From the IMG/VR virus record IMGVR_UViG_3300028048_000141, positions 1,476 through 65,475 of that record: a DNA stretch of 64,000 nt. The stretch is one strand, 5' to 3'. How positions within the stretch are numbered: the stretch's first letter is position 1; the number at the start of each line of letters is the position of its first letter. This document shows, one piece after another, positions 4,142 to 46,224 of the stretch. Below the pieces are notes generated by a model. The model was not told where the DNA came from and searched no databases. It saw nothing but the letters and a program-made list of their open reading frames with translations. The stretch is from a virus. The position numbers and the translations under genes are program-made.

Positions 4142-4171
4142 ATTATACACCGTTTTCGGTCGGTATGTCAA
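4142..4171 (-). promoter_or_regulatory. sigma70 promoter (TTGACA, 18-nt spacer, TATAAT), motif A
   Basis: Minus strand reads ggTTGACAtaccgaccgaaaacggtgTATAATag. Confidence 0.6.
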
Positions 4172-11605: not shown

Positions 11606-13861
11606 TTATTCGCCGATTATGACTTGGACCGCGGAGTCGACGCTCTTTTTCAAACGCCTTATCCTGTCCCTGAATGAGAGTACCGACGAACCAGATGACC
11701 ATCTTTCACCGAAGAAGATGTCGTCCAGTTTATCCTTCCTCTGTTTCTTGTCCTTGAGGGCCAATGCATTCTCTATCGATTCTACGAGGTTAGTGTATTC
11801 CTCCATGAGTTGCATCAACTGCTCTGATAGGTTCCTAAGCGTCCTAATCTTGATTGGCGACGAGTTAATCTTCTTGACGTTGAACTTGGTCAGATAGGAT
11901 GCCAGTTCCTTTCTGATTCCGTTCAATTCGTCGAGGATGTAGTCCATCGATTTGACTTTGAATTTGCCGAGTTGGATTCTCATCCTCTCGTATTTATGGG
12001 GGTCAAGAAGGTATCCGGATTTATCGTAGCCCTCGGCGTTGGCGAATCTTTGGATTCTCTTGACCGCGGTCTCGACCCACTTATCGTTCTCGTCGTAGTG
12101 GCCAGGAACCTCGACCGGTTCGTCGTGGAGCCTCCATCCCTTCTCCGGATGTCTGCCGTATTTGTCGTCCCATGTGTGGAACTCCGCTCTGCCCCTTCTC
12201 TTTTCCTTCGACCAGTTTGATTCATCCGTCGAATCGTAATAGCAGAAGTCGACCGTGTTGGCGAGGATGTCCCTCTTTGAATATTTATCAAAGGTTTCTT
12301 TGCTCCAATATGAAGGCCAGTAGTAGTATTCGTGGTCGTTCAATCCCGGAATGTAGATTTGGTCCATCTCGGTCGTCTCATCGCCATATCTATATGAGTA
12401 TTTAAGGTGATAGATGGGGACGTATGGTTCCCTGGTGAACTTCGACGCCGGGCTGGGGATATCGTCCAGGGAATAGAAGTGCATCTTGTTCAAGTCGAGG
12501 TTTGCCCTATTGAACAGTTCCTTGGCATCCTTGTTCTTTTTTAGGAAGTCCCTTAGCCATTGCGGCATCGATTCGGAGAATTCCTCATTGAGTTCCAATG
12601 CCTCCTCAACGTCCTCCCCGGACGTGAAGTTTATATGCTTTGCATAGAAAGGTTGGTTTATCCTTTTGCATGCTATCGGATGTCTCTTCGTCGTGATTTT
12701 CACCTTTTCGCATTTGTCGAACGCGTTCAATTCCAAGGTGTCGACCGATTCCGGGAGGTTGACGGTCTCAAGGTTCTTGCACCCCTCGAACGCCGATTCC
12801 CCGATATTCTTCATGGTATTCCCCTCGATTACCACGGTCTTTAGGTTCGGCATGTCCGAGAACATCCCTTGGGCTACTGCGACGAATCCGTTGCCAATCG
12901 TCAATTTCCTTAACTTCGGCCAATTCTGCCACCTTCCCCTGAATTGGGTGATGTCCACGACATCGCCGGAGCGTTCGGTCGTGATTACCACTTCCTTCAC
13001 CAACTTCCTGAATCCGTTGTTGCCCATAATCTTCCTTGCCTCGTAGGACAAATCGCCGAAGTTGTATTCGAGTTTTGCGTCGCCGTTCTCGAATTCGATG
13101 TATTCCCTTACCCTATTCATGCTTTCGAAGTTCGCGAATTCAGGTTTGTCCTTCAATAGATTGAACAACGACCTTCTGCTCAGGAAGAAATCGACGGGTT
13201 CGACTCCGGAGTTGCCGCTGTCCTTGAATTCCCTGAAGTCGTTGAATCTTCTTTCGGGGGCGTATATGGCGAATTGGTATTTTTTGTCCCTGTCGTGTTT
13301 GTTGATTATGATGAAAATCTTTCCGCCGCGTTCGGTATAGTAGTTGTAATAGTGGTCGCTGTCGTGTCTTCCGGTGCACCAGACGGCGTTGTCGCCCCTG
13401 ATGAACTTTGACGCCTCGTATGTCTGTGGGTTCCAGACCTCCCAGTCATCGTTCTTGGCGAACATGACCGCGCCTGGGATTTGCTCCGCCCTGACCTCGA
13501 AATCGGATTTGTCGTAGACGTCGACGGTGTCGAGGAAGGAAGTGAGGTCGGAGAACTTCTTGAAGGCGTTGACGTCCCTGTATTTGGCGTTGTCGCCCTT
13601 GAGTTTGTTCTTGATTGATTTGTATTTCTCCAGTGCGGGTTTTACGGCGTCCCCGATTTCGTCGAAGTCCTCTCCCCTTTTGTGCAGGGTCAAAAGCCAC
13701 TTGCCGAACTCTCCGAGTTTGTTGTTCTCGACCTTGAACGTGGGGTCAAGTGCGATAATCCTGTCGAAATCATCCCTGCCCATCTGCTGGGAATAATACG
13801 TTCCGTATACGGAATCGAGGTCTTCGTCCAATATCAATAGTCTTTTTTCTTCAAACGCCAT
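11606..13861 (-). CDS. large protein with BspA-type LRR repeats plus a WCTG paralog domain
   Basis: LRR_5 repeats such as MPNLKTVVIEGNTMKNIGESAFEGCKNLETVNLPESV. Segment WEVWNPQTYEASKFIRGDNAVWCTG...KIFIIINKHDRDKKYQFAIY is paralogous to the 10358-11554 gene. AAGGAAG RBS. Confidence 0.65.
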   Translation of the reverse strand: MAFEEKRLLILDEDLDSVYGTYYSQQMGRDDFDRIIALDPTFKVENNKLGEFGKWLLTLHKRGEDFDEIGDAVKPALEKYKSIKNKLKGDNAKYRDVNAFKKFSDLTSFLDTVDVYDKSDFEVRAEQIPGAVMFAKNDDWEVWNPQTYEASKFIRGDNAVWCTGRHDSDHYYNYYTERGGKIFIIINKHDRDKKYQFAIYAPERRFNDFREFKDSGNSGVEPVDFFLSRRSLFNLLKDKPEFANFESMNRVREYIEFENGDAKLEYNFGDLSYEARKIMGNNGFRKLVKEVVITTERSGDVVDITQFRGRWQNWPKLRKLTIGNGFVAVAQGMFSDMPNLKTVVIEGNTMKNIGESAFEGCKNLETVNLPESVDTLELNAFDKCEKVKITTKRHPIACKRINQPFYAKHINFTSGEDVEEALELNEEFSESMPQWLRDFLKKNKDAKELFNRANLDLNKMHFYSLDDIPSPASKFTREPYVPIYHLKYSYRYGDETTEMDQIYIPGLNDHEYYYWPSYWSKETFDKYSKRDILANTVDFCYYDSTDESNWSKEKRRGRAEFHTWDDKYGRHPEKGWRLHDEPVEVPGHYDENDKWVETAVKRIQRFANAEGYDKSGYLLDPHKYERMRIQLGKFKVKSMDYILDELNGIRKELASYLTKFNVKKINSSPIKIRTLRNLSEQLMQLMEEYTNLVESIENALALKDKKQRKDKLDDIFFGERWSSGSSVLSFRDRIRRLKKSVDSAVQVIIGE

Positions 13862-13920: not shown

Positions 13921-14556
13921 ATCCGTCTGTATATGTTTTGAGTGTTCTTTGCGAAATGATTTAAGACCGGCCTTCGCCGTACAATACTTCCCAACCGTAC
14001 CTTGTTATCCGACATTCACTGGCTCTGAGGGCAAGGGAGCGACCCAAGCACTTTTCCAATGGCCACTTGCGTGACGATACAACGCCGGGGAGCGGAACCC
14101 CGGAACTTTCACCGAACTTCAGAGACATAAAATCCTTAAGTCATCGTTTTAAAAAGACGTGATACGGCTACTCGCTCGACTTCGATTCCTTATAGCACAT
14201 TACTGTGCGTCAACACGTCCGATACCCGTAGGGTGAGTTGCCGGGCATTATGTTTCTCAGGCATAATACCGCAGGCGGGATGGGATTACTCCCAGTGCCT
14301 CTTGTGGGGCGGAATCCGAAGTCAGGACTAGATACCATTGACATACTGCGACACTGACCAGAGCCTTGCCCTCACGGGTAGGTGAACCGTCCGTAGGCAT
14401 CGCTGCCTTTCCTTCAAGGTCTCGCTTTCCGGAACAGTATCCCATTCCGTAATCGCTACGTCGGCCAGACCCCTGCGGTCCGTAAGACCATCTTCACAGG
14501 GTTGTCAATAAATCCTTTCTCAAAGAACACTCGTGAACCACGCTCTCGCATCGTTC
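13921..14556 (-). ncRNA. candidate structured ncRNA of about 630 nt; ORF-free, bounded by a promoter and a terminator
   Basis: No ORF of 60 aa or longer in any frame. Motif-A -10 at 14565-14570. The terminator at 13897-13920 closes it. GC-rich with many local hairpins. Confidence 0.3.
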
Positions 14557-14682: not shown

Positions 14683-14757
14683 TGGCTGGGGCGGGTGGAT
14701 TCGGACCACCGCATCCGCGGTTCAAAGCCGCGTGCCTTACCGCTTGGCTACACCCCA
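14683..14757 (-). tRNA. tRNA-Gln (anticodon UUG)
   Basis: Cloverleaf parsed by hand. Acceptor UGGGGUG/CGCCCCA, anticodon loop CUUUGAA, encoded CCA. Confidence 0.75.
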
Positions 14758-14762
14758 ATGTG

Positions 14763-14838
14763 TGGCACCCTCTGGGGGACTCGAACCCTCAACCTACTGC
14801 TTAGGAGGCAGTCGCGATATCCTTTTCGCCAAGAGGGT
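14763..14838 (-). tRNA. tRNA-Arg (anticodon CCU)
   Basis: Acceptor ACCCUCU/AGAGGGU, loop CUCCUAA, T-loop UUCGAGU, CCA. Confidence 0.7.
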
Positions 14839-14846
14839 GTGTCGGT

Positions 14847-14922
14847 TGGCACCCCGGGCAGGACTCGAACCTGCAACTTACTGCTTAGAAGGCAGTTACT
14901 CTATCCATTGAGTTACCGGGGT
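14847..14922 (-). tRNA. tRNA-Arg (anticodon UCU)
   Basis: Acceptor ACCCCGG/CCGGGGU, D-stem ACUC/GAGU, loop CUUCUAA, 76 nt, CCA. Confidence 0.8.
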
Positions 14923-14950
14923 ATTTATGGGCTTTCCGTCCACCCACCGT

Positions 14951-14962
14951 ATATTATACACG
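14951..14962 (-). promoter_or_regulatory. internal motif-A promoter inside the tRNA cluster
   Basis: atattatacacg on the + strand. Confidence 0.4.
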
Positions 14963-15009
14963 AAATCGGCAGAGGATGCAAATGTTTTTTTTCGGATGCG
15001 TTCCATCCG

Positions 15010-15083
15010 TGGCGGGCCCTGAGAGAATCGAACTCACATTCTTCGGTTAACAGCCGAGCGTTCTGCCTTTGAACTAAGGGCCC
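15010..15083 (-). tRNA. tRNA-Asn (anticodon GUU)
   Basis: Acceptor GGGCCCU/AGGGCCC, loop CUGUUAA, T-loop UCGAUUC. Confidence 0.75.
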
Positions 15084-15086
15084 GTA

Positions 15087-15171
15087 TGGTGGGAGGTGAT
15101 AGAGTCGAACTACCCGAGCCGATGGCAACTGTTTTACAGACAGTCCCGCTACCCCTACGGTATAACCTCCC
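15087..15171 (-). tRNA. tRNA-Tyr (anticodon GUA), class II
   Basis: 85 nt with a long variable arm. Loop CUGUAAA. Acceptor GGGAGGU/ACCUCCC. Confidence 0.75.
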
Positions 15172-15175
15172 GCGT

Positions 15176-15246
15176 TGGTCGCCGCACATGGAATCGGACC
15201 ATGCCTACGGAGGTATGAACTCCGCTTCGCCCCAGACTATACGGCG
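15176..15246 (-). tRNA. tRNA-Met/Ile2-like (anticodon CAU)
   Basis: Anticodon stem CGGAG/CUCCG with loop UUCAUAC. T-arm CAUGG-UCCGAUU-CCAUG. The D-arm folds poorly. Confidence 0.5.
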
Positions 15247-15248
15247 TT

Positions 15249-15323
15249 TGGTGGATTAGGTTGCGCTCGAATCAACTTCTGCAGATTTTCAGTCTGCCAC
15301 TCTACCATATAAGTTACTAATCC
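15249..15323 (-). tRNA. tRNA-Phe (anticodon GAA)
   Basis: Acceptor GGAUUAG/CUAAUCC, anticodon stem GCAGA/UCUGC, loop CUGAAAA. Confidence 0.7.
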
Positions 15324-15327
15324 ATAT

Positions 15328-15405
15328 TGGTTGTGAGGACGGGATTCGAACCCATACCCTCCCGGCTCCGGACCGGGTGTGCTACCAAGTTACATCCACC
15401 TCACA
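15328..15405 (-). tRNA. tRNA-Pro (anticodon CGG)
   Basis: Stem CCCGG/CCGGG with loop UCCGGAG. Acceptor UGUGAGG/CCUCACA. Confidence 0.65.
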
Positions 15406-15409
15406 ATGT

Positions 15410-15485
15410 TGGTGCCCCGAGAGGGATTCGAACCCCCAGACTACTCGTTCTAAGCGAGCATTGTATACCGTTCCAGCATCGGGGC
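15410..15485 (-). tRNA. class-I tRNA-like with anticodon UAG (Leu-type anticodon in a 76-nt body); atypical D-arm
   Basis: Acceptor GCCCCGA/UCGGGGC, anticodon stem GCUCG/CGAGU, loop CUUAGAA, T-arm GGGGG-UUCGAAU-CCCUC. No canonical D-stem could be found. Confidence 0.4.
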
Positions 15486-15499
15486 GATTCGGACGGATG

Positions 15500-15574
15500 T
15501 GGTAGGCTGGGGCAGAGTCGGACTGCCGTCTCAGACTTATCAGGTCTGCGTTCTGACCGTTAAACTACGAGCCT
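15500..15574 (-). tRNA. tRNA-Ile (anticodon GAU)
   Basis: Stem CAGAC/GUCUG with loop CUGAUAA. T-arm GGCAG-UCCGACU-CUGCC. One C-C mismatch in the acceptor stem. Confidence 0.65.
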
Positions 15575-15580
15575 ATTCAT

Positions 15581-15658
15581 TGGCGGACCACGAGGGAGTC
15601 GAACCCTCCTCTCTACCGTGACAGGGTAGCATACTCAGAACCGATATACGAGTAGTCC
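15581..15658 (-). tRNA. tRNA-Asp (anticodon GUC)
   Basis: Stem CUACC/GGUAG with loop CUGUCAC. T-arm GAGGG-UUCGACU-CCCUC. Confidence 0.7.
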
Positions 15659-15662
15659 GTTT

Positions 15663-15739
15663 TGGTGCACTAGGGAGGGCTCGAACCTCCGACCTCCAAC
15701 TTGTAAGGTTGGCACTCATCCCATCTGAGTTACTAGTGC
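15663..15739 (-). tRNA. tRNA-Val (anticodon UAC)
   Basis: Acceptor GCACUAG/CUAGUGC, D-stem ACUC/GAGU, stem CCAAC/GUUGG, loop CUUACAA. Confidence 0.8.
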
Positions 15740-15748
15740 ATATTAATT

Positions 15749-15827
15749 TGGTCGGGAGGGTGGGATTCGAACCCACGCCCTCTTGCTTCCAACGCAAGCA
15801 CGATAGACCAAACTACGCTACCTCCCG
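15749..15827 (-). tRNA. tRNA-Pro (anticodon UGG)
   Basis: Acceptor CGGGAGG/CCUCCCG, stem CUUGC/GCAAG, loop GUUGGAA, T-arm GUGGG-UUCGAAU-CCCAC. Confidence 0.7.
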
Positions 15828-15930
15828 ATGAAAAAGGGTGACACGGATTTTTCGTCCATGCCACCCTCGAAGTTGATTTAGAGCCTTGTTACCGCTAATT
15901 ACCACCTGAAATGGGCATGGACAAATAACC

Positions 15931-15945
15931 AATCATATTATAATC
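15931..15945 (-). promoter_or_regulatory. motif-A-like -10 (TATAAT) upstream of the tRNA block 15010-15827
   Basis: + strand catattataatcaaag. Confidence 0.35.
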
Positions 15946-16025
15946 AAAGACTGGTCTGGGTTGCACGAATACGAGATTGTCGTTTAGTCTCTTTGTCATG
16001 ATTGTCCTTCTCCTTTTTCAGACAC

Positions 16026-16036
16026 TTAATTTAGCG
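16026..16036 (-). promoter_or_regulatory. motif B. Its AGCGA forms a hairpin with a downstream TCGCT
   Basis: + strand TTAATTTAGCGAgtcgttttCGCT. Confidence 0.4.
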
Positions 16037-16093
16037 AGTCGTTTTCGCTTCAATGATTTTGTTAACAAACTTTTCGATTATGTCGTTTGTCAA

Positions 16094-16181
16094 TGGCGGA
16101 GGCACCGCGACTCGAACGCGGACGCCGGTTGCCCGACGGACACCTTAGCAGGGTGTTGAGATGCCATTACTCCATGCCTCC
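16094..16181 (-). tRNA. tRNA-Ser (anticodon GCU), class II
   Basis: 88 nt. Acceptor GGAGGCA/UGCCUCC, loop CUGCUAA, long variable arm. Confidence 0.75.
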
Positions 16182-16195
16182 TGGTTTAACTTCAA

Positions 16196-16269
16196 TGGAG
16201 CGGGCGACGGGAATCGAACCCGTATGACCACCTTGGCAAGGTGGCGTTCTACCATTGAACTACGCCCGC
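16196..16269 (-). tRNA. tRNA-Gly (anticodon GCC)
   Basis: Acceptor GCGGGCG/CGCCCGC, D-stem GUUC/GAAC, stem CCACC/GGUGG, loop UUGCCAA. Confidence 0.8.
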
Positions 16270-16272
16270 AAA

Positions 16273-16347
16273 TGGAGCGGGATACCGGAATCGAACCGGC
16301 GTCTCCTGCTTGGAAGGCAGGGGCCCTGACCATTGGACTAATCCCGC
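16273..16347 (-). tRNA. tRNA-Gly (anticodon UCC)
   Basis: Acceptor GCGGGAU/AUCCCGC, stem CCUGC/GCAGG, loop CUUCCAA. Confidence 0.8.
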
Positions 16348-16350
16348 ATG

Positions 16351-16427
16351 TGGAGACCCCAACGGGATTCGGACCCGTGAATGCAACCTTGAGAGGGTTG
16401 TGACTTAAGCCGCTTGTCTATGGAGCC
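16351..16427 (-). tRNA. tRNA-Glu (anticodon CUC)
   Basis: Acceptor GGCUCCA/UGGGGUC with two G-U pairs. Stem CAACC/GGUUG, loop CUCUCAA. Confidence 0.65.
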
Positions 16428-16449
16428 GTTTTATGATGTTACTATACAC

Positions 16450-17100
16450 CACATCATGGGGGTGAGGCTTATTCTACGCTCGTTTCTATTTCGCCTCTGC
16501 CGTTCGCTTCCACGAGAAGGCACTTCACTAGCCCAGCCTGCTTTCTTCTTACAGGAACATTCTAGGTTCTACCTGGGAGGGACTGTACCCACATACACAG
16601 GATTCTGGGTGTGGAACTTTTCCGGATGCCGTTTTGTGCATCACACGCTGTACTTGGTGGACTCGTTTATGCTGTGCCCTTTTGCAGCCGTAGGCGTAAT
16701 ATCCCGCTTCCGTTTGAATTCGGGCAGTTTGATGTGATTGCCCGGCACATTAGGTGTGCACGCTTACCCTTCCTCTCGTCGTGCCTCCTACCGTTCCTTT
16801 TTTACTTCTTCGGCGTAACGGCTAAGATACCAATTAAGGTTTTGTTTATTTGTCCTGCTTCTTCAACGACCTGCGCCGTCTGAGCCGGGCCTTTTGATTC
16901 GACGCACTTCCCGGTCGCGTCACCATTAGCCAGGTCCTACCTTATCCTGGTTTTCAACCCCATTCTGCATCATCCCGGATATTCGGGACCGTTTTCTCAA
17001 GGGTGAGGTCGCAGAGGTTTTACGTCTTCGTGCCGACGGGCTGTAAACATGATGCCTTAATACAATCACTTGCGGCATATGCTGTTATCATAGGGAAGTG
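16450..17100 (-). ncRNA. candidate structured ncRNA of about 650 nt; ORF-free, downstream of tRNA-Trp
   Basis: No credible ORF; the + strand ORFs here overlap tRNAs or have no signals. GC-rich. Bounded by tRNA-Trp and the tRNA-Glu promoter. Identity unknown. Confidence 0.25.
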
Positions 17101-17112
17101 AATGACCTATGA

Positions 17113-17186
17113 TGGCAGGCCTGCTAGGATTCGAACCCGGATACGCGGTTTTGGAGACCGCAGTCCTACCGTTGGACGACAGACCT
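17113..17186 (-). tRNA. tRNA-Trp (anticodon CCA)
   Basis: Acceptor AGGUCUG/CAGGCCU, D-stem GUCC/GGAC, stem GCGGU/ACCGC, loop CUCCAAA. Confidence 0.7.
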
Positions 17187-17196
17187 ATGTTCAGGA

Positions 17197-17718
17197 TTAG
17201 TCTTCTTCCGACTTCTCCTGTTCGAGAACCCAATCCAGGTTCTCCTTGTCGACATACCATATCTCGGCCTCATCGCCGTCGATTTTGGTCGGGTGGAATA
17301 CCCAGTCGCCTGATTTGACCTTCAATGCGTCGTTGATGTAGACATCTCCCCATCCGTCGCATTTCCTGAAGCCAACCCAGTATTTCCAATCCTTAAGGAA
17401 CCTCTCGGCATCATTCGCCTTCATTTCCATAAGTTGTTCCTCGGTGAAGTAGTGTGACAGCAACCAAGCCGCGGCGTACTCCGAGGATATCGAATCCTCG
17501 TCAATACATACCTTACGGCAGATGCCGTCCATCAGGGCTCCGGCAGACAGTTTGTCGTAGACCCTGCCACCATAACCCTCGTGCATGCAGAACGTGGCGA
17601 TGTCCGCGTAATCGAGGACGACGTCCCTCTTGCCTTCGTATTCACCCATTGTGAAGTAATTGGCCGTGAGTTTGAAGTGGTCGACCACCTTCAATTCAAG
17701 TTCATCCAAAACAAGCAT
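17197..17718 (-). CDS. hypothetical protein
   Basis: The listed ORF start overlaps tRNA-His. The ATG at 17718 (MLVLDEL...) has an AAAGGAG RBS. Confidence 0.55.
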   Translation of the reverse strand: MLVLDELELKVVDHFKLTANYFTMGEYEGKRDVVLDYADIATFCMHEGYGGRVYDKLSAGALMDGICRKVCIDEDSISSEYAAAWLLSHYFTEEQLMEMKANDAERFLKDWKYWVGFRKCDGWGDVYINDALKVKSGDWVFHPTKIDGDEAEIWYVDKENLDWVLEQEKSEED

Positions 17719-17736
17719 AGACTCTCCTTTCTGCAT

Positions 17737-17811
17737 TGGGGTGGGATAAGGGTGTCGAACCCATGTCCTCCGGTTCACAGCCGGATGCACTGCCGTTGTG
17801 CTAATCCCACC
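17737..17811 (-). tRNA. tRNA-His (anticodon GUG) with a genomically encoded G-1 and C73
   Basis: Reads G-GUGGGAU...AUCCCAC-C-CCA. Stem UCCGG/CCGGA, loop CUGUGAA. The extra 5' G pairs with discriminator C73. Confidence 0.75.
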
Positions 17812-17819
17812 AAGGTATG

Positions 17820-17905
17820 TGGTGCCCATGGTCGGACTCGAACCGACACGCTTTAGGGGCGGCAGATTTTGAGTCTGCTGCGTCTACCGGTTTCGCCACA
17901 CGGGC
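17820..17905 (-). tRNA. tRNA-Leu (anticodon CAA), class II
   Basis: 86 nt. Stem GCAGA/UCUGC, loop CUCAAAA, long variable arm, T-arm GUCGG-UUCGAGU-CCGAC. Confidence 0.7.
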
Positions 17906-17909
17906 ATGA

Positions 17910-17997
17910 TGGCGGAGAGTTAGGGATTCGAACCCCAGGTAGGTTGCCCTACTTCTGTTTTCAAGACAGACGCCTTCGACCGCTCGGCCAACTCTCC
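17910..17997 (-). tRNA. tRNA-Ser (anticodon UGA), class II
   Basis: 88 nt. Acceptor GGAGAGU/ACUCUCC, loop CUUGAAA. Confidence 0.8.
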
Positions 17998-18026
17998 ATT
18001 ATGGCTCCAGAAGGAGCCGTCGTTCA

Positions 18027-18428
18027 TTACTTGTCGCTCTTCAAGTAGGCGTGGCGAGCATCCAACTCGTCGATGGCCTCGCGAACCGTGTGTGCAAGGT
18101 AATCGACCTTGTTGAGCAGTTTTACGAGTGCCTCGCGGGCTTCGCGGTTGCCTTTGGCTTCCGCACGCTTGGATGCTAACACCTTACCGAAGATTTCGTC
18201 ATAGACGTCGTTGGGATTGCATTTGGCAACGCCGGCGGTCTTGAATCCGACTTCGGCGTTGCAGGAATTCCAGTTGAACGCCTGCGCCTCGTCAAGGGCC
18301 CGCATGACTTCCGAATGGGCCTTGTCGATGGCTTTGTCGGGCCTGTAGTTGGTGATGCCAAGCACAGTGGTGACGGGTCCTTTGCGAATGACTTTCTTCT
18401 CGGTGAATTTGAATGCCTTGGTGCTCAT
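18027..18428 (-). CDS. hypothetical protein
   Basis: 133-aa ORF. Confidence 0.5.
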   Translation of the reverse strand: MSTKAFKFTEKKVIRKGPVTTVLGITNYRPDKAIDKAHSEVMRALDEAQAFNWNSCNAEVGFKTAGVAKCNPNDVYDEIFGKVLASKRAEAKGNREAREALVKLLNKVDYLAHTVREAIDELDARHAYLKSDK

Positions 18429-18458
18429 GAGATTTCCTCCTTAATTATAGGTATTCAT

Positions 18459-18532
18459 TGGTGCCCCAGGGTCGAATCGAACGGCCGTCGGATGCTTACA
18501 AGGCAACTGTTCTGCCATTAAACTACAAGGGC
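18459..18532 (-). tRNA. tRNA-Thr (anticodon UGU)
   Basis: Acceptor GCCCUUG/CUGGGGC, D-stem GUUU..GAAC, loop CUUGUAA. A few mismatches. Confidence 0.55.
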
Positions 18533-22887: not shown

Positions 22888-22963
22888 TGGTGGACCCTAC
22901 CGGGCTCGAACCGGTGACCTCCTGCTTGCAAAGCAGGCGTTCTCCCAACTGAACTAAGGGCCC
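22888..22963 (-). tRNA. tRNA-Ala (anticodon UGC)
   Basis: Acceptor GGGCCCU/AGGGUCC with a G3-U70 wobble. Stem CCUGC/GCAGG, loop UUUGCAA. Confidence 0.8.
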
Positions 22964-25603: not shown

Positions 25604-25665
25604 AACAAATCCTCCCGCTTATGCCTACCATAATTATAGGTTATTTGCATACGCATGTCAACATG

Positions 25666-26541
25666 TTATTCCCCGACGTTGATGAGGTTTTCGACGTAGT
25701 CCCTTCCGGAGTCGACGAACCTCGGGATGTCGTCGTCGATATCCCATCTGCTGTAGAATTTGGTATCGCGTGGAAGTTCGCATGTGCTGTCTGTGAAGAA
25801 CAACCATCCGCCTTCCGGTGTCGGATAGACCTCTTCCTCGGAGTGCTCGTTTCCGTCGGGGTCCTTGAAGTAGCACCTCTTGACGCAGCAACTGCCACGT
25901 TTGTATGTGGTAGGTTCGTTTCCCCAAACAAATCCCTTCTCCCTCTCCATCTTGTCGACGAGTTGCGGGCAGGTGAGGTTTTGGAGTTGCTTGTGGGAGA
26001 ACATGGATTGGGCATAGGATTGGATGGAGTTCCTCTCCGCGTCCAACTGCCTCCAAAAAATGCAGTTCGTTACCTCTTCCTTCGGGATGTTGAACGCCCT
26101 GGCGTCGAACGTGGCCTGGAAGAGTTTCCTTGCGTATTTCTTGAATTCGTTTTCGTTCTCGGTCATCTCCGCGATGTTGTTCATGAACACCCTGTTGAAT
26201 TCGAGGGTGGCCATCGAAGCACTGATTGAGACGAGTTTCTGGACGTCGTATTCGAACCAGGCGGAAGACGTGAGCGTCTGATAGTCGACCAACACCAACG
26301 TGATTTCGTCCGATTGCGTGTATCCCAGGACGCAGCCCTGGATGTTCTTGCAGAGGTACTGCATCGTCTCCTGCATGGACTTGACGAGTATCGCGTCGAT
26401 TGGTTTGTCCATCCCCTTCGTGAATGTGTGGAAGGCCCTGCCGTCGATTCTGATGATTACCGGTGTCCTTCTGGTTAGTTTGAGTTTTGCGGGGTTTTCG
26501 TAGAATGCCTTCATCCTATCCCCAAGTGAGTCCTTTACCAT
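25666..26541 (-). CDS. Thg1-like protein (tRNA-His guanylyltransferase family, 3'-5' polymerase)
   Basis: VIIRIDGRAFHTF and LGYTQSDEITLVL match the two hallmark Thg1 catalytic motifs, VVVRLDGRNFHRF and AYGQSDEYSFVF. Confidence 0.75.
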   Translation of the reverse strand: MVKDSLGDRMKAFYENPAKLKLTRRTPVIIRIDGRAFHTFTKGMDKPIDAILVKSMQETMQYLCKNIQGCVLGYTQSDEITLVLVDYQTLTSSAWFEYDVQKLVSISASMATLEFNRVFMNNIAEMTENENEFKKYARKLFQATFDARAFNIPKEEVTNCIFWRQLDAERNSIQSYAQSMFSHKQLQNLTCPQLVDKMEREKGFVWGNEPTTYKRGSCCVKRCYFKDPDGNEHSEEEVYPTPEGGWLFFTDSTCELPRDTKFYSRWDIDDDIPRFVDSGRDYVENLINVGE

Positions 26542-26558: not shown

Positions 26559-26978
26559 TTACCACTCATGTGATTCTTCCTTGTGCTTCACATAATTGGC
26601 GTACAGCACCTCGAATGCCTCGGCAAGGACCTTTCTGAATTGCCTGGTTGATTCCCAGTCCGGGCATTCCTTTTCGATTCTGTCACCGACCGAGCGATAT
26701 GAGCATTCACCGTCCTTGTCGTGTTCGACGAACGCGATGACGATGTAACTCGGTTTCTTCTTGGTGCCGTGGTTAACGTTGACCTCGATGGCCAATTCCT
26801 CATGTGGCGGAATCGTTTCGAAATCTATGGCCGGGAATCCCTTTTCGTCTTTCTTGGTCGAGCCGTCGTCATTGTGCATGAAGACCAGCCTTGCGACCGT
26901 GCAAAGCCTGAATTTGCCAAGCGTCATGAAATCCTGATGCTTGCCGTCGCCTTTGAGTTTAACTACGTTGCGTTTCAT
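26559..26978 (-). CDS. hypothetical protein
   Basis: 139-aa ORF. Confidence 0.5.
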   Translation of the reverse strand: MKRNVVKLKGDGKHQDFMTLGKFRLCTVARLVFMHNDDGSTKKDEKGFPAIDFETIPPHEELAIEVNVNHGTKKKPSYIVIAFVEHDKDGECSYRSVGDRIEKECPDWESTRQFRKVLAEAFEVLYANYVKHKEESHEW

Positions 26979-28867
26979 TGGTTTCCTACCTTCTCAGTGT
27001 ATTTGCATTTGGGATATCCGGTGCATCCCAGGAATCTTCCGTAAGCACCCGTTCTGAACACGAGCGGCTTACCACATTCCGGGCAGACTCTGTCGGAAGG
27101 CTCGGCCTTTGGACGAGGTCCTCCTGAGACTTTCTTCGCGGTCTCCTCCAATTTATTATACAGGTTTTTGAGGAACGAGAGATAATCCAATTTCGAATTG
27201 GCGATTAAGTCAAGGTCCTTTTCCATTTCGCTGGTATAATTTACGTTGATGATGTCCCCGAACGACTTGTCGAGGAAATCGGATAACGCCATTCCCTTTT
27301 CGGTAGGCACGATGCATCCGTCCACTACTTCGCAGTATCCCCTGGATGGGTCTAGGAGGGTGGACAATATTGTGGAGAACGTCGAAGGCCTTCCGATTCC
27401 GCAGGATTCCAATTCCTTGATGAGCGTGGCTTCCTTGAATCTGGCGGGAGGTGTGGTCGTCTTGCTTACAGCGGTCATTGACGGGCTGTACGACTTATCG
27501 ATTACCTCACCCTTCGAGAACGTTTCCTTGACTAACTCGTCATCGGTCTTGTCCTTATCCTTATATGTGTAGACCTTTTGGTATCCGTCGAACACCAATT
27601 CCTTGGAAACCATATGGAACTCGTGCTTTCCGCATTTGATTGTGTATGTGGTCTCGCCGGTGACGGCAGGTGCCATCATGGTAGCGACGGTTCTTTTATA
27701 GATGATTTCATACACCTTTACCAAATCCTTGTCATCCAGTAGTTTGGCGAGTTTGCTAGGCGTCATATTGAGGTCAACCGGTCTGATTGCCTCGTGGCCG
27801 TCCTGGGCCGTTTCCGCCTTCTTTGCCTCCTTGATTGGTGCGAAGTATTCCTTGCCGTATTTTGATTTGACGTGCTTCTCCAAGATGGGTAGGAACTCCG
27901 GTGCGAATTCCGGGCTGTCAGTTCTGATGTATGTGATTAAGGCGATGTGCTCGCCATCGATATTAAGTCCCTCAAATAATTTCTGGGCATATTCCATGGA
28001 CCTCTTGGTGCTGATTCCCAACTTGGACGAAACCTCCTGTTGGAACGTGGAGGTGATGAATGGCGGCTTGGGAAAACTGTTCTTGTTCTTATACTTGATG
28101 TCTGAGACGGTGAACCAATCTCCCTGTTTTGTCGATTTTTTGCAATCTTCGGTGACTTCGACGCAATAGTCGTAGGAAGGTCTCTTTACTTCCTTTCCGT
28201 CGCACCCGAAGTATTTGGCTTTGAATTCCTTTCCGTTCTTGACGAAGTTCAATGTCAGTTCGCCGTATTCATCCGGGACGAAGTCGATGATTTTCCTTTC
28301 GAGGTCGGCGATTAACTTAAGGCCTGCTGATTGGCATCTTCCGACGCTCTTGGCTTGGACCTTCCTCCTGGCCTCGGGCGAAAGCCTATATCCGATTAAA
28401 CGGTCCGCTATGCGTCTGGTATGGGCCGCATTGACCAGGGCGTCGTCGATATTGCGTGGTTTCTCGAATGCCTTCAGAACCGCGTTCTCTGTGATTTCGT
28501 GGAACGTTACCCTGTGGCACTTGGCCGCCGGAATCTTAAGGAACTTCTTGAGACCCCAGGCAATGGCCTCACCTTCGCGGTCAGGGTCGGTCGCCAAGTA
28601 TACCTCGTCGGCGAGTTCGACCTGTTCCTTCAATTCAGAAACGATTTTCTTCTTATCCGCCAAAACGGCGTACTTGGTCTTGAAATCGTTTTCCGGCTCA
28701 ACACCGGTATTCCAATAGGTTCCGCCGTTCTGTATTTCGCAGATGTGTCCCACAGAGGCCTTGACGACGCATTTGTTGTATCCGGCATCCTTGAGGATTT
28801 TGGAAATCGTCGGGACCTTGTTCGGAGACTCGACGATTATCAATGTTCTTTTCTTTTTGTCAAGCAT
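26975..28867 (-). CDS. topA: type IA DNA topoisomerase with a C-terminal zinc ribbon
   Basis: Toprim region LIIVESPNKVPTI, DPDREGEAIAW, active-site YIRTDS, C-terminal CPECGKPL...CTGYPKC. AAAGGAGG RBS. Confidence 0.85.
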   Translation of the reverse strand: MLDKKKRTLIIVESPNKVPTISKILKDAGYNKCVVKASVGHICEIQNGGTYWNTGVEPENDFKTKYAVLADKKKIVSELKEQVELADEVYLATDPDREGEAIAWGLKKFLKIPAAKCHRVTFHEITENAVLKAFEKPRNIDDALVNAAHTRRIADRLIGYRLSPEARRKVQAKSVGRCQSAGLKLIADLERKIIDFVPDEYGELTLNFVKNGKEFKAKYFGCDGKEVKRPSYDYCVEVTEDCKKSTKQGDWFTVSDIKYKNKNSFPKPPFITSTFQQEVSSKLGISTKRSMEYAQKLFEGLNIDGEHIALITYIRTDSPEFAPEFLPILEKHVKSKYGKEYFAPIKEAKKAETAQDGHEAIRPVDLNMTPSKLAKLLDDKDLVKVYEIIYKRTVATMMAPAVTGETTYTIKCGKHEFHMVSKELVFDGYQKVYTYKDKDKTDDELVKETFSKGEVIDKSYSPSMTAVSKTTTPPARFKEATLIKELESCGIGRPSTFSTILSTLLDPSRGYCEVVDGCIVPTEKGMALSDFLDKSFGDIINVNYTSEMEKDLDLIANSKLDYLSFLKNLYNKLEETAKKVSGGPRPKAEPSDRVCPECGKPLVFRTGAYGRFLGCTGYPKCKYTEKVGNQ

Positions 28868-28925: not shown

Positions 28926-28940
28926 CGACACCTATATTAT
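28926..28940 (-). promoter_or_regulatory. motif-A promoter for the topoisomerase gene
   Basis: + strand cctatattatacagg. A GGCGGA/TCCGCC hairpin lies in the 5' UTR. Confidence 0.45.
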
Positions 28941-28965
28941 ACAGGATTTTCAATCATTGTGTGAA

Positions 28966-30163: not shown

Positions 30164-30204
30164 GACATTTCCTCCTGTCGTGTCCGAAAACATTATAGAC
30201 CGAG

Positions 30205-30232
30205 ACGATGTATAATGTCAAATATTTTTAAC
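30205..30232. promoter_or_regulatory. inverted repeat ACATTATA-n12-TATAATGT spanning a -10
   Basis: + strand aACATTATAgaccgagacgatgTATAATGTc. It uses the same half-sites as the 6088 palindrome. Confidence 0.45.
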
Positions 30233-30492: not shown

Positions 30493-30878
30493 CAGTAATC
30501 CTCCCCGTTGCCGTAATTCACCATGACTTCCCTGAGGTCCCGGTGTTGTTCCGCGGCCTCCATTATATCTATTAATTTAGCCTCACACAATTTCTTCCTC
30601 TGATAGAAGGTGGTATTGAGGAAGGTATTGATTTCCTTGATTATCTTTACTTCCTTGTATTCCATCCTCTTAAGGGAACTCGTGTAACCGTTGGGCAGAT
30701 GGTCGATGTCGGGGATGACCGGGCCCCAAGTGAATATGGTCGTGGTTCCAAGCGACGTCCTCGCCACCATGTAGAAGTACACACCATCCTCGGTGCATGC
30801 CTCTATGGCGAAATTGCCGATGTCCTCTATCTTCAATAGGTTCTGGGCCGTAGACAATCGATTGTATTCAAAATCCAT
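30492..30878 (-). CDS. hypothetical protein
   Basis: 128-aa ORF. It contains an internal motif-B-like 11-mer at 30573. Confidence 0.5.
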   Translation of the reverse strand: MDFEYNRLSTAQNLLKIEDIGNFAIEACTEDGVYFYMVARTSLGTTTIFTWGPVIPDIDHLPNGYTSSLKRMEYKEVKIIKEINTFLNTTFYQRKKLCEAKLIDIMEAAEQHRDLREVMVNYGNGEDY

Positions 30879-31549
30879 TATTTTTTGTCTTCCTTGATTT
30901 CCTCGGGCTTCTCAAGCGTGATTTCGCCTGACGCGACGCCTGCCATGAATTTAATGGCATCGTCGATTCTCTTCAACTCGGGGTCCTCCTGGATTTCCTT
31001 TTGGAGTTCCTCGTTCCTCTTCTTGAGGGAATCAATCCACATCTCGATGATTTGTGTTTGGATTTCCTCCGGTGCCTTGTCGAAGTCCTCGTCAATCTCA
31101 AGTCCGATGTCCGACAGTAGGATTCCGTCCAATAGGTTGACCATTTGCTCGAAGACCTCTGCGACCACGCCTTCGAACTTGTTTTCCTCGACGTATCCGT
31201 TGGGTTTCTGGTACTTGGCGAGGATTCTGTCGTGTCTTGGGGTGATGAACGTCCTTCCGGGGAGGCTCGGCGAGGTTTCCCTTGCCAAATGCATGCCTTC
31301 CGTCTTGGTAATCATCGGATTGACGAACGTCCTGATTTCCCCATCGGAGAATTTGATGCAGAAGATTCTGTCGTCGTGTCCCAATTGGGGTGCGGCGAGT
31401 GCGACGACGTCGACGTTGTCCTTCAAGGTGTCCTTGAGGTCCGAAACTATCGATTGCGCCTCGCCTCTGCGTTGAAGCACGTTGATTTCCTCGCTTCTTT
31501 CCGACAATTTGTCTGTGTCGGTGCTGATTTTCAATACGTATTTTGCCAT
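30878..31549 (-). CDS. peptide-deformylase-like protein with all three metal ligands replaced; predicted catalytically inactive
   Basis: PDF motif 1 is conserved (VALAAPQLG against G-x-G-x-AA-x-Q). Motif 2 EGCLS is changed to ETSPS. Motif 3 QHExDH is changed to FEQMVN. Acidic C-terminal tail. Confidence 0.5.
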   Translation of the reverse strand: MAKYVLKISTDTDKLSERSEEINVLQRRGEAQSIVSDLKDTLKDNVDVVALAAPQLGHDDRIFCIKFSDGEIRTFVNPMITKTEGMHLARETSPSLPGRTFITPRHDRILAKYQKPNGYVEENKFEGVVAEVFEQMVNLLDGILLSDIGLEIDEDFDKAPEEIQTQIIEMWIDSLKKRNEELQKEIQEDPELKRIDDAIKFMAGVASGEITLEKPEEIKEDKK

Positions 31550-45522: not shown

Positions 45523-45597
45523 TGGTCCTCCAGCAGGGAGTCGAACCCCGATTTAGCCCTTATAAGGAGCCCACTCTGACCGTTGAGTTACAGGAGG
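45523..45597 (-). tRNA. tRNA-Ile (anticodon UAU, reads AUA)
   Basis: D-stem ACUC/GAGU. Anticodon stem GGCUC/GGGCU with G-U pairs. Loop CUUAUAA. T-arm CGGGG-UUCGACU-CCCUG. Confidence 0.55.
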
Positions 45598-45605
45598 ATA
45601 TGTCA

Positions 45606-45690
45606 TGGTGCCCAAGACCGGAGTCGAACCGGTATGCCTTTCGGCGAGGGATTTTAAGTCCCTTGCGTCTACCGATTCCGCCACTCGGGC
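45606..45690 (-). tRNA. tRNA-Leu (anticodon UAA), class II
   Basis: 85 nt. Acceptor GCCCGAG/CUUGGGC, stem AGGGA/UCCCU, loop CUUAAAA, long variable arm. Confidence 0.75.
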
Positions 45691-45693
45691 AAT

Positions 45694-45773
45694 TGGTTGC
45701 AGGACTAGGAGTCGAACCTAGTATCTCAACCGGTTATGGGCCGTGAATGGTATATCCGTTCCACTCTCCTGCA
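45694..45773 (-). tRNA. tRNA of undetermined identity (80 nt)
   Basis: Clear acceptor UGCAGGA/UCCUGCA, T-arm CUAGG-UUCGACU-CCUAG, and ACCA. The anticodon arm could not be folded canonically; a CAU triplet is present. Confidence 0.4.
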
Positions 45774-45827
45774 ATATATGTAATCGAGGTCTTTTATAAC
45801 GGTGTCTCTTAACCGAGGATAATCGTT

Positions 45828-46224
45828 TGGTGGACCCGCCGGGAGTCGAACCCGGGTCCAAATACCTTTGGGCGACAATCTCTACATCTTAGTCGATTTG
45901 ATTGTGACGGCAGGATGTTTAACCGACAACGTCCCCTGACCGTGTACGCCACATTTGTTTTCGCTTTCCTCGGGTGACGTTCCTCGGTTCGCTAGTCCGA
46001 TTGTTTGCCCGAATACCGCCATCAGACTTCACGGGATTCAGGAGAGCCGTTACTCAGATTAGTAACTTAAGGCCATTCTAGGAGTGCCAACTTTGAAGAG
46101 GTTGGCGAAGAATGATTTGACTCTGTTGATTAAAGATTTGCCATTTGTTGTTTGTTTGGTTTATGGTGACCAACCGATGCAATCGTAACCCGCAAATACC
46201 TGTCAAAACCAAATATACGAGCCC
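45828..46224 (-). ncRNA. ssrA: tmRNA (SsrA), about 397 nt
   Basis: 3' end GGACCCGGGUUCGACUCCCGGCGGGUCCACCA is a T-arm plus acceptor with no anticodon arm, as in E. coli GGACGCGGGUUCAACUCCCGCCAGCUCCACCA. The 5' end GGGCUCG pairs with CGGGUCC including a G3-U70 wobble, and A73 follows. The 5' region UUUGACAGGUAUUUGCG and GGUUGGUCACCAUAAACC parallel E. coli UUCGACGGGAUUUGCG and GGUUGGCCUCGUAAAAAGCC. The tag ORF is not resolved. Confidence 0.65.

What the first reader, a model, noticed from the sequence alone, without database searches (positions are those of the whole stretch)
25666..26541. Thg1-like 3'-5' polymerase in a phage whose tRNA-His already encodes G-1
The protein has both Thg1 catalytic motifs, RIDGRAFHTF and GYTQSDEITLVL. 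The phage tRNA-His (17737-17811) carries a genomically encoded G-1 opposite C73. Canonical G-1 addition is therefore unnecessary. The enzyme is more likely a tRNA 5'-end repair polymerase of the TLP type. Phage-encoded TLPs are scarcely described. Combined with Pnkp, tmRNA and about 26 tRNAs it outlines a dedicated tRNA maintenance and repair system.
Basis: partly seen in the sequence, partly recalled or inferred. Interest (0 to 1): 0.7.

Follow-up and report, generated by a model that had tools for sequence, protein, structure and literature searches.

The report
Phage Thg1-like reverse RNA polymerase gene
This uncultured gut or rumen phage carries an intact bacterial-type Thg1-like enzyme that most likely rebuilds damaged 5' ends of tRNAs; the same gene is already annotated in well over a hundred sequenced phages, so it is a correct but fairly ordinary find.

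Summary
ORF 25666..26541 (-) encodes a 291-aa protein with both quoted motifs. It matches Pfam Thg1 (104 bits, cut-off 29) and PHROG 4717 (E 2e-85). Its best solved relative is the Bacillus thuringiensis Thg1-like protein (TLP), E 2e-57, and the predicted fold agrees (TM 0.88). All known catalytic residues are invariant in 50 homologues. The eukaryotic anticodon-reading HINNLYN motif is replaced.

The phage tRNA-His is the only one of 25 tRNAs with G at -1 and C at 73. No tRNA has a 5' mismatch that would need editing.

It is therefore a TLP, and tRNA 5'-end repair is the best-supported role. That role is inferred, not shown.

The rarity claim fails for annotation: 164 GenBank phage records, at least 580 IMG/VR contigs and more than 8000 metagenomic proteins carry relatives. 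The repair reading with polynucleotide kinase and RNA ligase was proposed in 2010 and 2021. I found no biochemical study of a phage enzyme.

The "system" is scattered over 50 kb here, but is compact in two relatives (TLP beside RlaP, tRNAs and a kinase-phosphatase-ligase fusion).

One feature seems undescribed: the tRNA-elbow beta-hairpin varies from 11 to 71 residues among close homologues.

Verdict: new member of a known kind.

The parts
25666..26541 (-). Thg1-like protein (TLP) gene, 291 aa
   Evidence: ORF. Pfam Thg1 104 bits. PHROG 4717 E 1.8e-85. BtTLP 4kgk E 1.8e-57. AF2 model pLDDT 89.5, Foldseek top hit BtTLP with TM 0.88.
26422..26451 (-). Motif RIDGRAFHTF: R31 (incoming-NTP contact) and D33 (metal-binding carboxylate; BtTLP D30, human D29)
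   Evidence: Residue roles from PMC3701042. R31 and D33 are invariant in 50 homologues.
26290..26325 (-). Motif GYTQSDEITLVL: S77 (activation step), D78 (metal-binding), E79 (third carboxylate)
   Evidence: All three are invariant in 50 homologues.
26020..26040 (-). AERNSIQ (aa 168-174), aligned to the eukaryote-specific HINNLYN anticodon-recognition motif. The His is replaced by Glu; N171 (activation-step Asn) is kept.
   Evidence: Alignment to Candida Thg1. Motif role from PMC6471195. Translation. N171 invariant.
25744..25896 (-). Expanded beta-hairpin region, aa 216-266 (51 aa). It occupies the C-terminal position where MaTLP has its tRNA-elbow-binding 'ruler' hairpin (placement inferred), and carries about 35 aa more than BtTLP.
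   Evidence: Gap in the BtTLP alignment. Model strands 217-226 and 262-269, pLDDT 76-88. Length ranges 11-71 aa in 50 homologues. Hairpin role from PMC4820378.
26559..28965 (-). Probable transcription unit upstream of the TLP gene: promoter-like site 28965..28936 (11/12), type IA topoisomerase 26975..28867, and an ORF of 139 aa with no family match 26559..26978
   Evidence: Genes overlap or are 17 nt apart. Co-transcription is inferred.
25633..25661 (-). Perfect TTGACA-N17-TATAAT immediately after the TLP stop codon; marks the start of the next unit
   Evidence: 3 perfect sites in the window, 0.01 expected.
17737..17811 (-). tRNA-His(GUG) with encoded G-1 (17811), C73 (17740) and CCA
14683..18532 (-). 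Array of 22 tRNA genes, candidate substrates. All have encoded CCA and none has a mismatch at pairs 1:72 to 3:70.
22888..22963 (-). tRNA-Ala(UGC), the tRNA gene nearest the TLP gene (2.7 kb away)
45523..46224 (-). tRNA-Ile(UAU), tRNA-Leu(UAA) and tmRNA (45828..46224)
   Evidence: tmRNA RF00023, 94.6 bits.
61723..63996 (-). 757-aa RNA healing-and-sealing fusion: P-loop polynucleotide kinase (aa 4-142), metallophosphoesterase (175-354), Rnl1-type RNA ligase (457-676)
   Evidence: Pfam AAA_33, Metallophos and RNA_lig_T4_1. phrog_8238 full length, E 6e-198. Bacterial Pnkp model TIGR04075 only 66 bits against a cut-off of 750.

Best explanation
The gene encodes a catalytically competent bacterial-type Thg1-like protein, that is, a template-dependent 3'-to-5' RNA polymerase. 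Host RNA polymerase probably transcribes it together with replication genes.

The mechanism is inferred from the characterised homologues BtTLP and MaTLP. The enzyme would bind a tRNA whose 5' strand of the acceptor stem is short by one or a few nucleotides. It holds the acceptor end in one subunit and the tRNA elbow with the beta-hairpin of the partner subunit. It activates the 5'-monophosphate with ATP or GTP (K46, S77, N171). It then adds the nucleotide that pairs with the opposite 3'-strand base, using two metals held by D33 and D78 (also R31, K102, R148). It removes pyrophosphate and stops when the stem is full length.

Substrates could be any of the 25 phage tRNAs or host tRNAs. Restoring G-1 opposite C73 on tRNA-His is one special case.

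Together with the kinase-phosphatase-ligase fusion, which can supply 5'-phosphate ends and reseal breaks, it would keep the tRNA pool usable during infection.

Shown: family, fold, intact catalytic residues, absence of the anticodon-reading motif, encoded G-1:C73. Inferred: activity, substrates and biological role.
For: Family and subtype. BtTLP scores E 1.8e-57 with TM 0.88; eukaryotic Thg1s score only 1e-5 to 1e-7 with 16-22% identity.

Active site: E15, R31, D33, S77, D78, E79, K102, R148, R164 and N171 are invariant, and K46 is at least 90% conserved, in 50 homologues. They map onto BtTLP E12, R28, D30, K43, S74, D75, E76, R131 and R147, whose roles were established experimentally.

HINNLYN is replaced by AERNSIQ, as expected for an anticodon-independent enzyme.

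tRNA-His already carries G-1:C73.

Association with RNA repair genes in relatives: in L160 the order is SPFH, RlaP, TLP, two tRNAs, then further genes, then Pnkp-Rnl. In L143 it is SPFH, two tRNAs, TLP, two tRNAs, Pnkp-Rnl. RlaP or Pnkp-Rnl homologous segments lie near the TLP gene in 26 of 160 loci. Two IMG/VR relatives carry both TLP and the Pnkp-Rnl fusion; in the 145-kb one the two genes lie about 31 kb apart, as in the window.

Earlier comparative genomics reached the same reading.
Against: No phage TLP has been assayed, and the physiological substrates of bacterial TLPs are themselves unknown.

In this window the gene is not next to tRNA or repair genes. Its immediate neighbours are a topoisomerase and ORFs with no family match.

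Only 11 of 80 IMG/VR loci and 24 of 80 GTDB loci have any tRNA within 10 or 6 kb of the TLP gene.

No phage tRNA has an encoded 5' defect, and no nuclease that trims tRNA 5' ends was identified here.

The beta-hairpin is much longer than in the characterised enzymes, so substrate geometry might differ.
Confidence: 0.6

Rival explanations
1. The main job is upkeep of tRNA-His identity. The enzyme re-adds G-1 opposite C73 on phage or host tRNA-His whenever RNase P or a nuclease removes the extra base, so that histidyl-tRNA synthetase still charges it.
For: BtTLP adds G-1 to C73-tRNA-His in a templated way, and the authors explicitly keep this role open even where G-1 is encoded. MaTLP retains a second, anticodon-dependent binding mode for tRNA-His. 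The phage tRNA-His has C73, the right template. In one relative (L166) the tRNA-His next to the TLP gene lacks G at -1.
Against: The His that stacks on anticodon base G36 in Thg1 is replaced by Glu. BtTLP is kinetically much better on truncated tRNAs than at position -1. G-1 is encoded here, and retention by RNase P is the bacterial norm (established knowledge). The L166 tRNA-His has no C73, so templated addition there would not give G.
Confidence: 0.2
2. The enzyme acts on something other than tRNA acceptor stems. Candidates are the tRNA-like end of the phage tmRNA, another small RNA, or broken RNA ends in the ligase pathway (making a 5'-adenylylated end or filling a gap before the Rnl1-type ligase seals it).
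For: The 2010 analysis raised 5'-App formation and ligation support as possibilities. The phage encodes tmRNA and ROOL RNA. RlaP, a predicted gap-filling nucleotidyltransferase, sits directly beside the TLP gene in L160. The hypervariable hairpin suggests variable partners.
Against: Every characterised TLP uses a recessed 5' end opposite a template strand, as in an acceptor stem. Anticodon-loop breaks offer no template. There is no direct evidence for any non-tRNA substrate here.
Confidence: 0.12
3. The protein makes a nucleotide signal or decoy (its palm domain is related to GGDEF and Cas10), or it is a passenger gene with no role in infection.
For: Thg1, GGDEF and Cas10 palm domains are related. 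Weak structural hits to GGDEF and adenylyl cyclase appear far down the list.
Against: All Thg1-specific residues, including those of the activation site, are invariant across homologues that are only 55-69% identical overall, which argues for the Thg1 reaction and for selection. PADLOC gives no meaningful match. The gene is widespread in large phages.
Confidence: 0.04

Closest known systems
Bacillus thuringiensis Thg1-like protein, BtTLP (PDB 4KGK, 4KGM)
   Same: Best sequence match (E 1.8e-57, 35-38% identity in the structural alignments) and best fold match (TM 0.88). All catalytic and nucleotide-binding residues are the same. There is no HINNLYN motif. The organism's tRNA-His already encodes G-1.
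   Different: Encoded by a phage. It has about 14 extra residues in the helix after aa 120 and about 35 extra residues in the C-terminal beta-hairpin. Activity is untested.
Phage 'tRNA-His guanylyltransferase' family, PHROG 4717 (e.g. Bacillus phage Bc431v3 gp143, Bacillus phage G gp378, Fusobacterium phage Fnu1 gp147)
   Same: Same family over the full length (E 1.8e-85). Carried by large phages (86-498 kb among the records listed). Bc431v3 carries 20 tRNA genes, and Fnu1 also has the kinase-phosphatase-ligase fusion.
   Different: At most 52% identical to any GenBank phage protein. The surrounding 12 kb has no megablast match to any phage record.
Methanosarcina acetivorans TLP, MaTLP (PDB 5AXK-5AXN)
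   Same: Same fold. It shows anticodon-independent repair in which a beta-hairpin reads the tRNA elbow and measures the acceptor stem.
   Different: Only 21-22% identity. Its hairpin is 18 residues against 51 here. Equivalence of its conserved R215 was not established.
Eukaryotic Thg1 (yeast, Candida, human)
   Same: Same superfamily, the same three carboxylates and the same three-step chemistry.
   Different: Thg1 adds G-1 opposite A73 without a template and reads the GUG anticodon through HINNLYN. That motif is absent here, and the tRNA-His here has C73 and an encoded G-1.
Mitochondrial tRNA 5'-editing TLPs (e.g. Dictyostelium DdiTLP3)
   Same: The same repair chemistry on many tRNA species.
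   Different: Editing exists to fix encoded mismatches in the first three acceptor pairs. None of the 25 phage tRNAs has one.
T4 Pnkp + Rnl1 tRNA healing and sealing
   Same: The window encodes kinase, phosphatase and Rnl1-type ligase activities, here in one polypeptide. TLP would add a fourth repair activity, for 5' ends.
   Different: The phosphatase is a metallophosphoesterase, not the T4 type (established knowledge). The fusion lies 35 kb from the TLP gene. No anticodon nuclease target is known here.

Membership tests
Thg1 superfamily (Pfam PF04446) | Profile match above the curated threshold | tested here: met
   104.1 bits against a cut-off of 29.2, aa 8-153 covering profile positions 2-130 of 130.
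Thg1 superfamily (Pfam PF04446) | Three conserved carboxylates (human D29, D76, E77; BtTLP D30, D75, E76) | tested here: met
   D33, D78 and E79 are aligned and invariant in 50 homologues. Roles.
Thg1 superfamily (Pfam PF04446) | Activation-step residues (yeast K44, S75, N161) and nucleotidyl-transfer residues (R27, K96, R133) | tested here: met
   K46, S77, N171 and R31, K102, R148 by alignment. All are invariant or at least 90% conserved.
Thg1 superfamily (Pfam PF04446) | Polymerase-like palm fold plus the Thg1 C-terminal region | tested here: met
   AF2 pLDDT 89.5, pTM 0.86. The top 32 PDB hits are all Thg1 or TLP chains. Pfam Thg1C was not reported at E <= 1, but the BtTLP alignment covers aa 4-227 and 262-287.
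Thg1 superfamily (Pfam PF04446) | 3'-to-5' nucleotide addition activity | not testable with these tools
   Needs an enzyme assay.
Thg1-like proteins (TLP), bacterial type | Closer to characterised TLPs than to eukaryotic Thg1 | tested here: met
   BtTLP scores E 1.8e-57; Thg1s score 7.5e-7 to 9e-5. Foldseek gives 1e-25 against about 1e-15.
Thg1-like proteins (TLP), bacterial type | Lacks the eukaryote-specific HINNLYN anticodon motif | tested here: met
   AERNSIQ occupies the aligned position. Motif definition.
Thg1-like proteins (TLP), bacterial type | Beta-hairpin that binds the tRNA elbow and limits extension | tested here: inconclusive
   A hairpin is predicted (strands 217-226 and 262-269) but it carries a 35-aa insertion. 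Equivalence to MaTLP R198-R215 was not shown residue by residue.
Thg1-like proteins (TLP), bacterial type | Watson-Crick templated repair of 5'-truncated tRNAs, not limited to tRNA-His | not testable with these tools
   Defined biochemically for BtTLP and MaTLP.
Thg1-like proteins (TLP), bacterial type | Dimer-of-dimers assembly | not tested
   Only a monomer was modelled.
Bona fide Thg1 (tRNA-His G-1 addition opposite A73) | HINNLYN motif with the anticodon-stacking His | tested here: not met
   His is replaced by Glu169.
Bona fide Thg1 (tRNA-His G-1 addition opposite A73) | Cognate tRNA-His lacks an encoded G-1 and has A73 | tested here: not met
   G at -1 and C at 73 are encoded. The host tRNA-His is unknown.
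tRNA 5'-editing system (mitochondrial type) | Encoded mismatches in acceptor pairs 1:72 to 3:70 | tested here: not met
   All 25 tRNAs pair at these positions. The only mismatches are at 6:67, in three tRNAs.
Phage RNA healing-and-sealing module acting with TLP | Kinase, 2',3'-phosphatase and RNA ligase encoded by the same genome | tested here: met
   757-aa fusion at 61723..63996. It is not the bacterial Pnkp equivalog (66 bits against 750).
Phage RNA healing-and-sealing module acting with TLP | Gene linkage between TLP and the repair genes | tested here: inconclusive
   35 kb apart in the window. Within 2-4 kb in L143 and L160, and RlaP is adjacent in L160. RlaP or Pnkp-Rnl segments are near the TLP gene in 26 of 160 loci.

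The most novel reading that the evidence does not exclude
Phage TLPs may belong to a mobile counter-defence RNA-repair kit (TLP, RlaP nucleotidyltransferase, kinase-phosphatase-ligase fusion, often an SPFH protein and tRNA genes). This kit would restore tRNA 5' ends attacked by a so far unrecognised host nuclease that trims acceptor stems. The 11-to-71-residue variation of the tRNA-elbow 'ruler' hairpin would then reflect adaptation to different tRNA sets or an arms race. If true, phages would supply the missing physiological context for bacterial-type TLPs.
Probability: 0.15. Interest if true: 0.65.

Novelty: new member of a known kind. Interest (0 to 1): 0.3.

Why it matters
The natural substrates of bacterial-type Thg1-like proteins have been an open question since 2011. 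Phages that carry the gene alongside their own tRNA sets and RNA healing-and-sealing enzymes are a convenient place to look for those substrates. This particular phage is uncultured, and cultured phages of Bacillus, Staphylococcus, Fusobacterium, Caulobacter and Mycobacterium carry the same family. The window therefore adds one more example plus two modest leads: the hypervariable hairpin, and the compact TLP-RlaP-ligase-tRNA clusters in relatives. It does not add a new kind of system.

Tried and rejected
1. 5'-editing need: I inspected all 25 acceptor stems and found no mismatch at pairs 1-3, so this was rejected.

2. Known phage: megablast of 20-32 kb against 50,697 phage records gave no match.

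3. Tight tRNA linkage: only 11 of 80 IMG/VR loci have a tRNA within 10 kb of the TLP gene. The neighbourhood is not conserved with window genes.

4. A 26th tRNA: relaxed ARAGORN settings gave only noise, and Rfam at E <= 0.1 added nothing.

5. The 685-nt ORF-free stretch 16428..17112: no Rfam hit, fold z-score +0.52.

6. Immediate neighbours of the TLP gene: no informative PHROG or Pfam family.

7. NCBIfam has no model matching the TLP. PADLOC gave only a chance-level hit, so a defence-system reading was rejected.

8. Literature: five searches found annotations and two comparative-genomics discussions, but no biochemical study of a phage TLP. The 2019 Thg1 review does not mention phages or viruses.

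9. Genome-wide co-occurrence of TLP with tRNA-His type could not be done, because only 6-20 kb around each hit is retrievable.

Full report
OBSERVATION

The ORF at 25666..26541 on the - strand is real. It starts with ATG and encodes 291 aa, and a GAGAGGAA ribosome-binding site lies about 8 nt upstream. RIDGRAFHTF is aa 31-40 and GYTQSDEITLVL is aa 73-84.

The family matches are strong:
- Pfam Thg1 (PF04446): 104.1 bits against a gathering score of 29.2.
- PHROG 4717, 'tRNA-His guanylyltransferase': E 1.8e-85 over the whole length.
- The exact protein is on record from 5 contigs; the four shown come from four sequencing runs.

ARAGORN finds 25 tRNA genes, all on the - strand. Each has an encoded CCA.

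tRNA-His occupies 17737..17810. It has G at 17811 and C at 17740, that is G-1 opposite C73. It is the only tRNA in the window with G at -1 and the only one with C at 73.

WHAT THE PROTEIN IS

- The best solved relative is the Bacillus thuringiensis Thg1-like protein (4kgk, E 1.8e-57). Eukaryotic Thg1 enzymes score only 1e-5 to 1e-7.
- An AlphaFold model built on 50 homologues is confident (pLDDT 89.5, pTM 0.86).
- Its 32 best PDB matches are all Thg1 or TLP chains. BtTLP comes first (E 1e-25, TM 0.88 on the target).
- The residues shown experimentally to matter in BtTLP, yeast and human Thg1 all align to identical residues here. These are E15, R31, D33, K46, S77, D78, E79, K102, R148, R164 and N171.
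- All of these are invariant, or at least 90% conserved, in an alignment of 50 homologues that are otherwise only 55-69% identical to the query, apart from one 90% relative.
- The eukaryote-specific HINNLYN motif holds the histidine that stacks on anticodon base G36. It is replaced here by AERNSIQ.

The protein is a bacterial-type TLP with an intact active site.

LIKELY FUNCTION

BtTLP and MaTLP add missing nucleotides to 5'-truncated tRNAs, using the 3' strand of the acceptor stem as template.
- They prefer such substrates 5- to 160-fold over addition at position -1.
- They are not restricted to tRNA-His.
- MaTLP holds the acceptor end in one subunit and the tRNA elbow with a flexible beta-hairpin of the other. 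This sets where extension stops.

By homology, the same chemistry is the best explanation here.

Mitochondrial-type 5' editing can be excluded. None of the 25 tRNAs has a mismatch in the first three acceptor pairs; the only mismatches are at 6:67 in three tRNAs.

Restoration of G-1 on tRNA-His remains possible as one of several activities. C73 is the right template, and Rao et al. explicitly left this role open for organisms that encode G-1.

It is not a new inference.

CONTEXT IN THE WINDOW

The window is the replication and nucleotide-metabolism region of a large phage. It has no close relative among 50,697 GenBank phage records.

Replication and related genes:
- DnaB, primase, DNA polymerase I and clamp-loader subunits
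- RecA, RecU and SbcCD
- dUTPase, a type IA topoisomerase and peptide deformylase

The TLP gene follows the topoisomerase gene and a 139-aa ORF with no family match. The gaps are 17 nt or less. A promoter-like site (11/12) lies upstream of the topoisomerase, and a perfect TTGACA-N17-TATAAT lies just after the TLP stop codon. Co-transcription with the topoisomerase is therefore likely, though inferred.

Where the tRNA-related parts lie:
- The nearest tRNA gene is 2.7 kb away.
- The main array of 22 tRNAs is about 7 to 12 kb away (14683..18532).
- The tmRNA (Rfam 94.6 bits) is about 19 kb away in the other direction (45828..46224).

It combines a P-loop kinase, a metallophosphoesterase and an Rnl1-type RNA ligase.
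- It is a full-length match to phrog_8238.
- It scores only 66 bits against the bacterial Pnkp model, whose cut-off is 750.
- The same fusion occurs in 140 GenBank phage records, mostly Staphylococcus, Lactobacillus, Bacillus and Fusobacterium phages.

All the ingredients of a tRNA maintenance kit are therefore present. They are scattered over about 50 kb and do not form a dedicated locus.

EVIDENCE FROM RELATIVES

How common the family is:
- 164 GenBank phage records carry relatives. The complete genomes listed are 86-498 kb. All are below 60% identical, and the best is 52%.
- At least 580 IMG/VR contigs carry relatives. Most of the 80 best are 80-280 kb.
- More than 8000 metagenomic proteins match at E < 1e-10; this was the cap of the search.
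- In bacterial genomes and MAGs the closest relatives are almost all from gut and rumen Clostridia: Lachnospiraceae, Ruminococcus and Oscillospiraceae. This points to the likely host group.

Local linkage to tRNA genes is weak. It is seen in 11 of 80 IMG/VR loci within 10 kb and in 24 of 80 GTDB loci within 6 kb.

Two loci are telling:
- L143: SPFH protein, tRNA-Leu, tRNA-Pro, TLP, two small ORFs, tRNA-Gln, tRNA-Leu, kinase-phosphatase-ligase fusion.
- L160: SPFH protein, RlaP (the RNA-ligase-associated Pol-beta nucleotidyltransferase, PF10127), TLP, tRNA-Cys, tRNA-Trp, a sigma factor, further genes, then the fusion.

Segments homologous to RlaP or to the fusion lie near the TLP gene in 26 of the 160 loci.

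Two IMG/VR relatives carry both TLP (53% identity) and the fusion (62%). In the 145-kb contig the two genes lie about 31 kb apart, as in the window. Fusobacterium phages Fnu1, FNU2 and FNU3 also have both genes.

This recurrent, minority association supports an RNA-repair role.

WHAT IS ALREADY KNOWN

- 2010: Anantharaman, Iyer and Aravind reported Thg1 genes next to polynucleotide kinase and RNA ligase genes. They proposed tRNA repair roles, including in large DNA viruses.
- 2021: the jumbo-phage survey lists Thg1 among phage RNA-repair enzymes.
- 2013: the Bacillus phage Bc431v3 paper called its gene 'highly unusual'. Many later phage papers simply annotate it.

I found no biochemical or genetic study of a phage TLP. 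The 2019 specialist review does not mention phages or viruses.

'Scarcely described' is therefore true only for experiments.

ONE FEATURE THAT MAY BE NEW

The C-terminal beta-hairpin region (aa 216-266, window 25744..25896) is 51 residues long here. Among the 50 close homologues it ranges from 11 to 71 residues, while the flanking sequence is nearly invariant. By its C-terminal position I equate it with the element that reads the tRNA elbow in MaTLP, which is poorly conserved there too. That equivalence is inferred, not shown residue by residue. Its meaning is unknown.

VERDICT

The TLP assignment and the encoded G-1 hold. The rarity claim and the 'dedicated system' are overstated.
- The finding is a new member of a known kind.
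- The biological role (tRNA 5'-end repair during infection) is the best-supported inference, at about 0.6. G-1 upkeep on tRNA-His (about 0.2) and non-tRNA substrates (about 0.1) are the rivals.
- Interest is modest, at 0.3.

Noticed in passing
window 13950..14525 (-): Full-length ROOL RNA (Rfam RF03087, 160.9 bits against a gathering score of 99.1). It lies 157 nt from the 3' end of the 22-tRNA array.
   Followed up: no
window 45828..46224 (-): Phage-encoded tmRNA (RF00023, 94.6 bits, full length). ARAGORN misses it. It sits directly beside tRNA-Ile(UAU) and tRNA-Leu(UAA).
   Followed up: partly
window 14683..18532, 22888..22963, 45523..45690 (-): All 25 tRNA genes encode their 3' CCA. No CCA-adding enzyme was found among the ORFs scanned.
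   Followed up: partly
window 15176..15246 and 15328..15405 (-): Two ARAGORN tRNAs are not detected by the Rfam tRNA model even at E <= 0.1. They are 'Met' (71 nt, anticodon at position 30, C1-G72) and Pro(CGG). They may be atypical tRNAs.
   Followed up: no
window 16428..17112: A 685-nt stretch inside the tRNA region has no ORF above 50 aa on the coding strand, no Rfam match and no unusual folding energy (z +0.52).
   Followed up: partly
window 61723..63996 (-) and 60326..61693 (-): A kinase + metallophosphatase + Rnl1-type RNA ligase fusion (phrog_8238) lies next to an SPFH/Band 7 protein. SPFH homologues also lie near the TLP gene in 10 of 160 related loci, and a prohibitin-family gene sits two genes from the TLP gene in Fusobacterium phage Fnu1.
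   Followed up: partly
L160 4176..12493 and L143 4412..10752: Compact clusters in MAG contigs. L160: SPFH, RlaP, TLP, tRNAs, further genes, then Pnkp-Rnl. L143: SPFH, tRNAs, TLP, tRNAs, Pnkp-Rnl.
   Followed up: yes
L166 9116..9188: In a TLP-bearing contig with 11 tRNAs beside the gene, the tRNA-His has neither G at -1 nor C at 73. This is the opposite of the window. Single case; the register was judged by eye.
   Followed up: partly
window 25744..25896 (-), alignment A1: The TLP beta-hairpin region varies from 11 to 71 residues among 50 close homologues. The longest class shares a motif of the form DGQ-VKN...GxFYFDGDGFYFF.
   Followed up: partly
window 4142..4171, 25633..25661, 30192..30221 (-): Three perfect TTGACA-N16-18-TATAAT sites, all on the coding strand (0.01 expected by chance). 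This suggests host sigma-70/sigA-type transcription of the region.
   Followed up: no
window 6864..9662 and 11606..13861 (-): Two large proteins (932 and 751 aa) with BspA-type leucine-rich repeats (LRR_5, E 7e-73 and 1e-12) lie just beyond the ROOL/tRNA region, at its low-coordinate end.
   Followed up: no
window 30878..31549 (-): Phage-encoded peptide deformylase (Pfam E 7e-21), another translation-related gene in the region.
   Followed up: no
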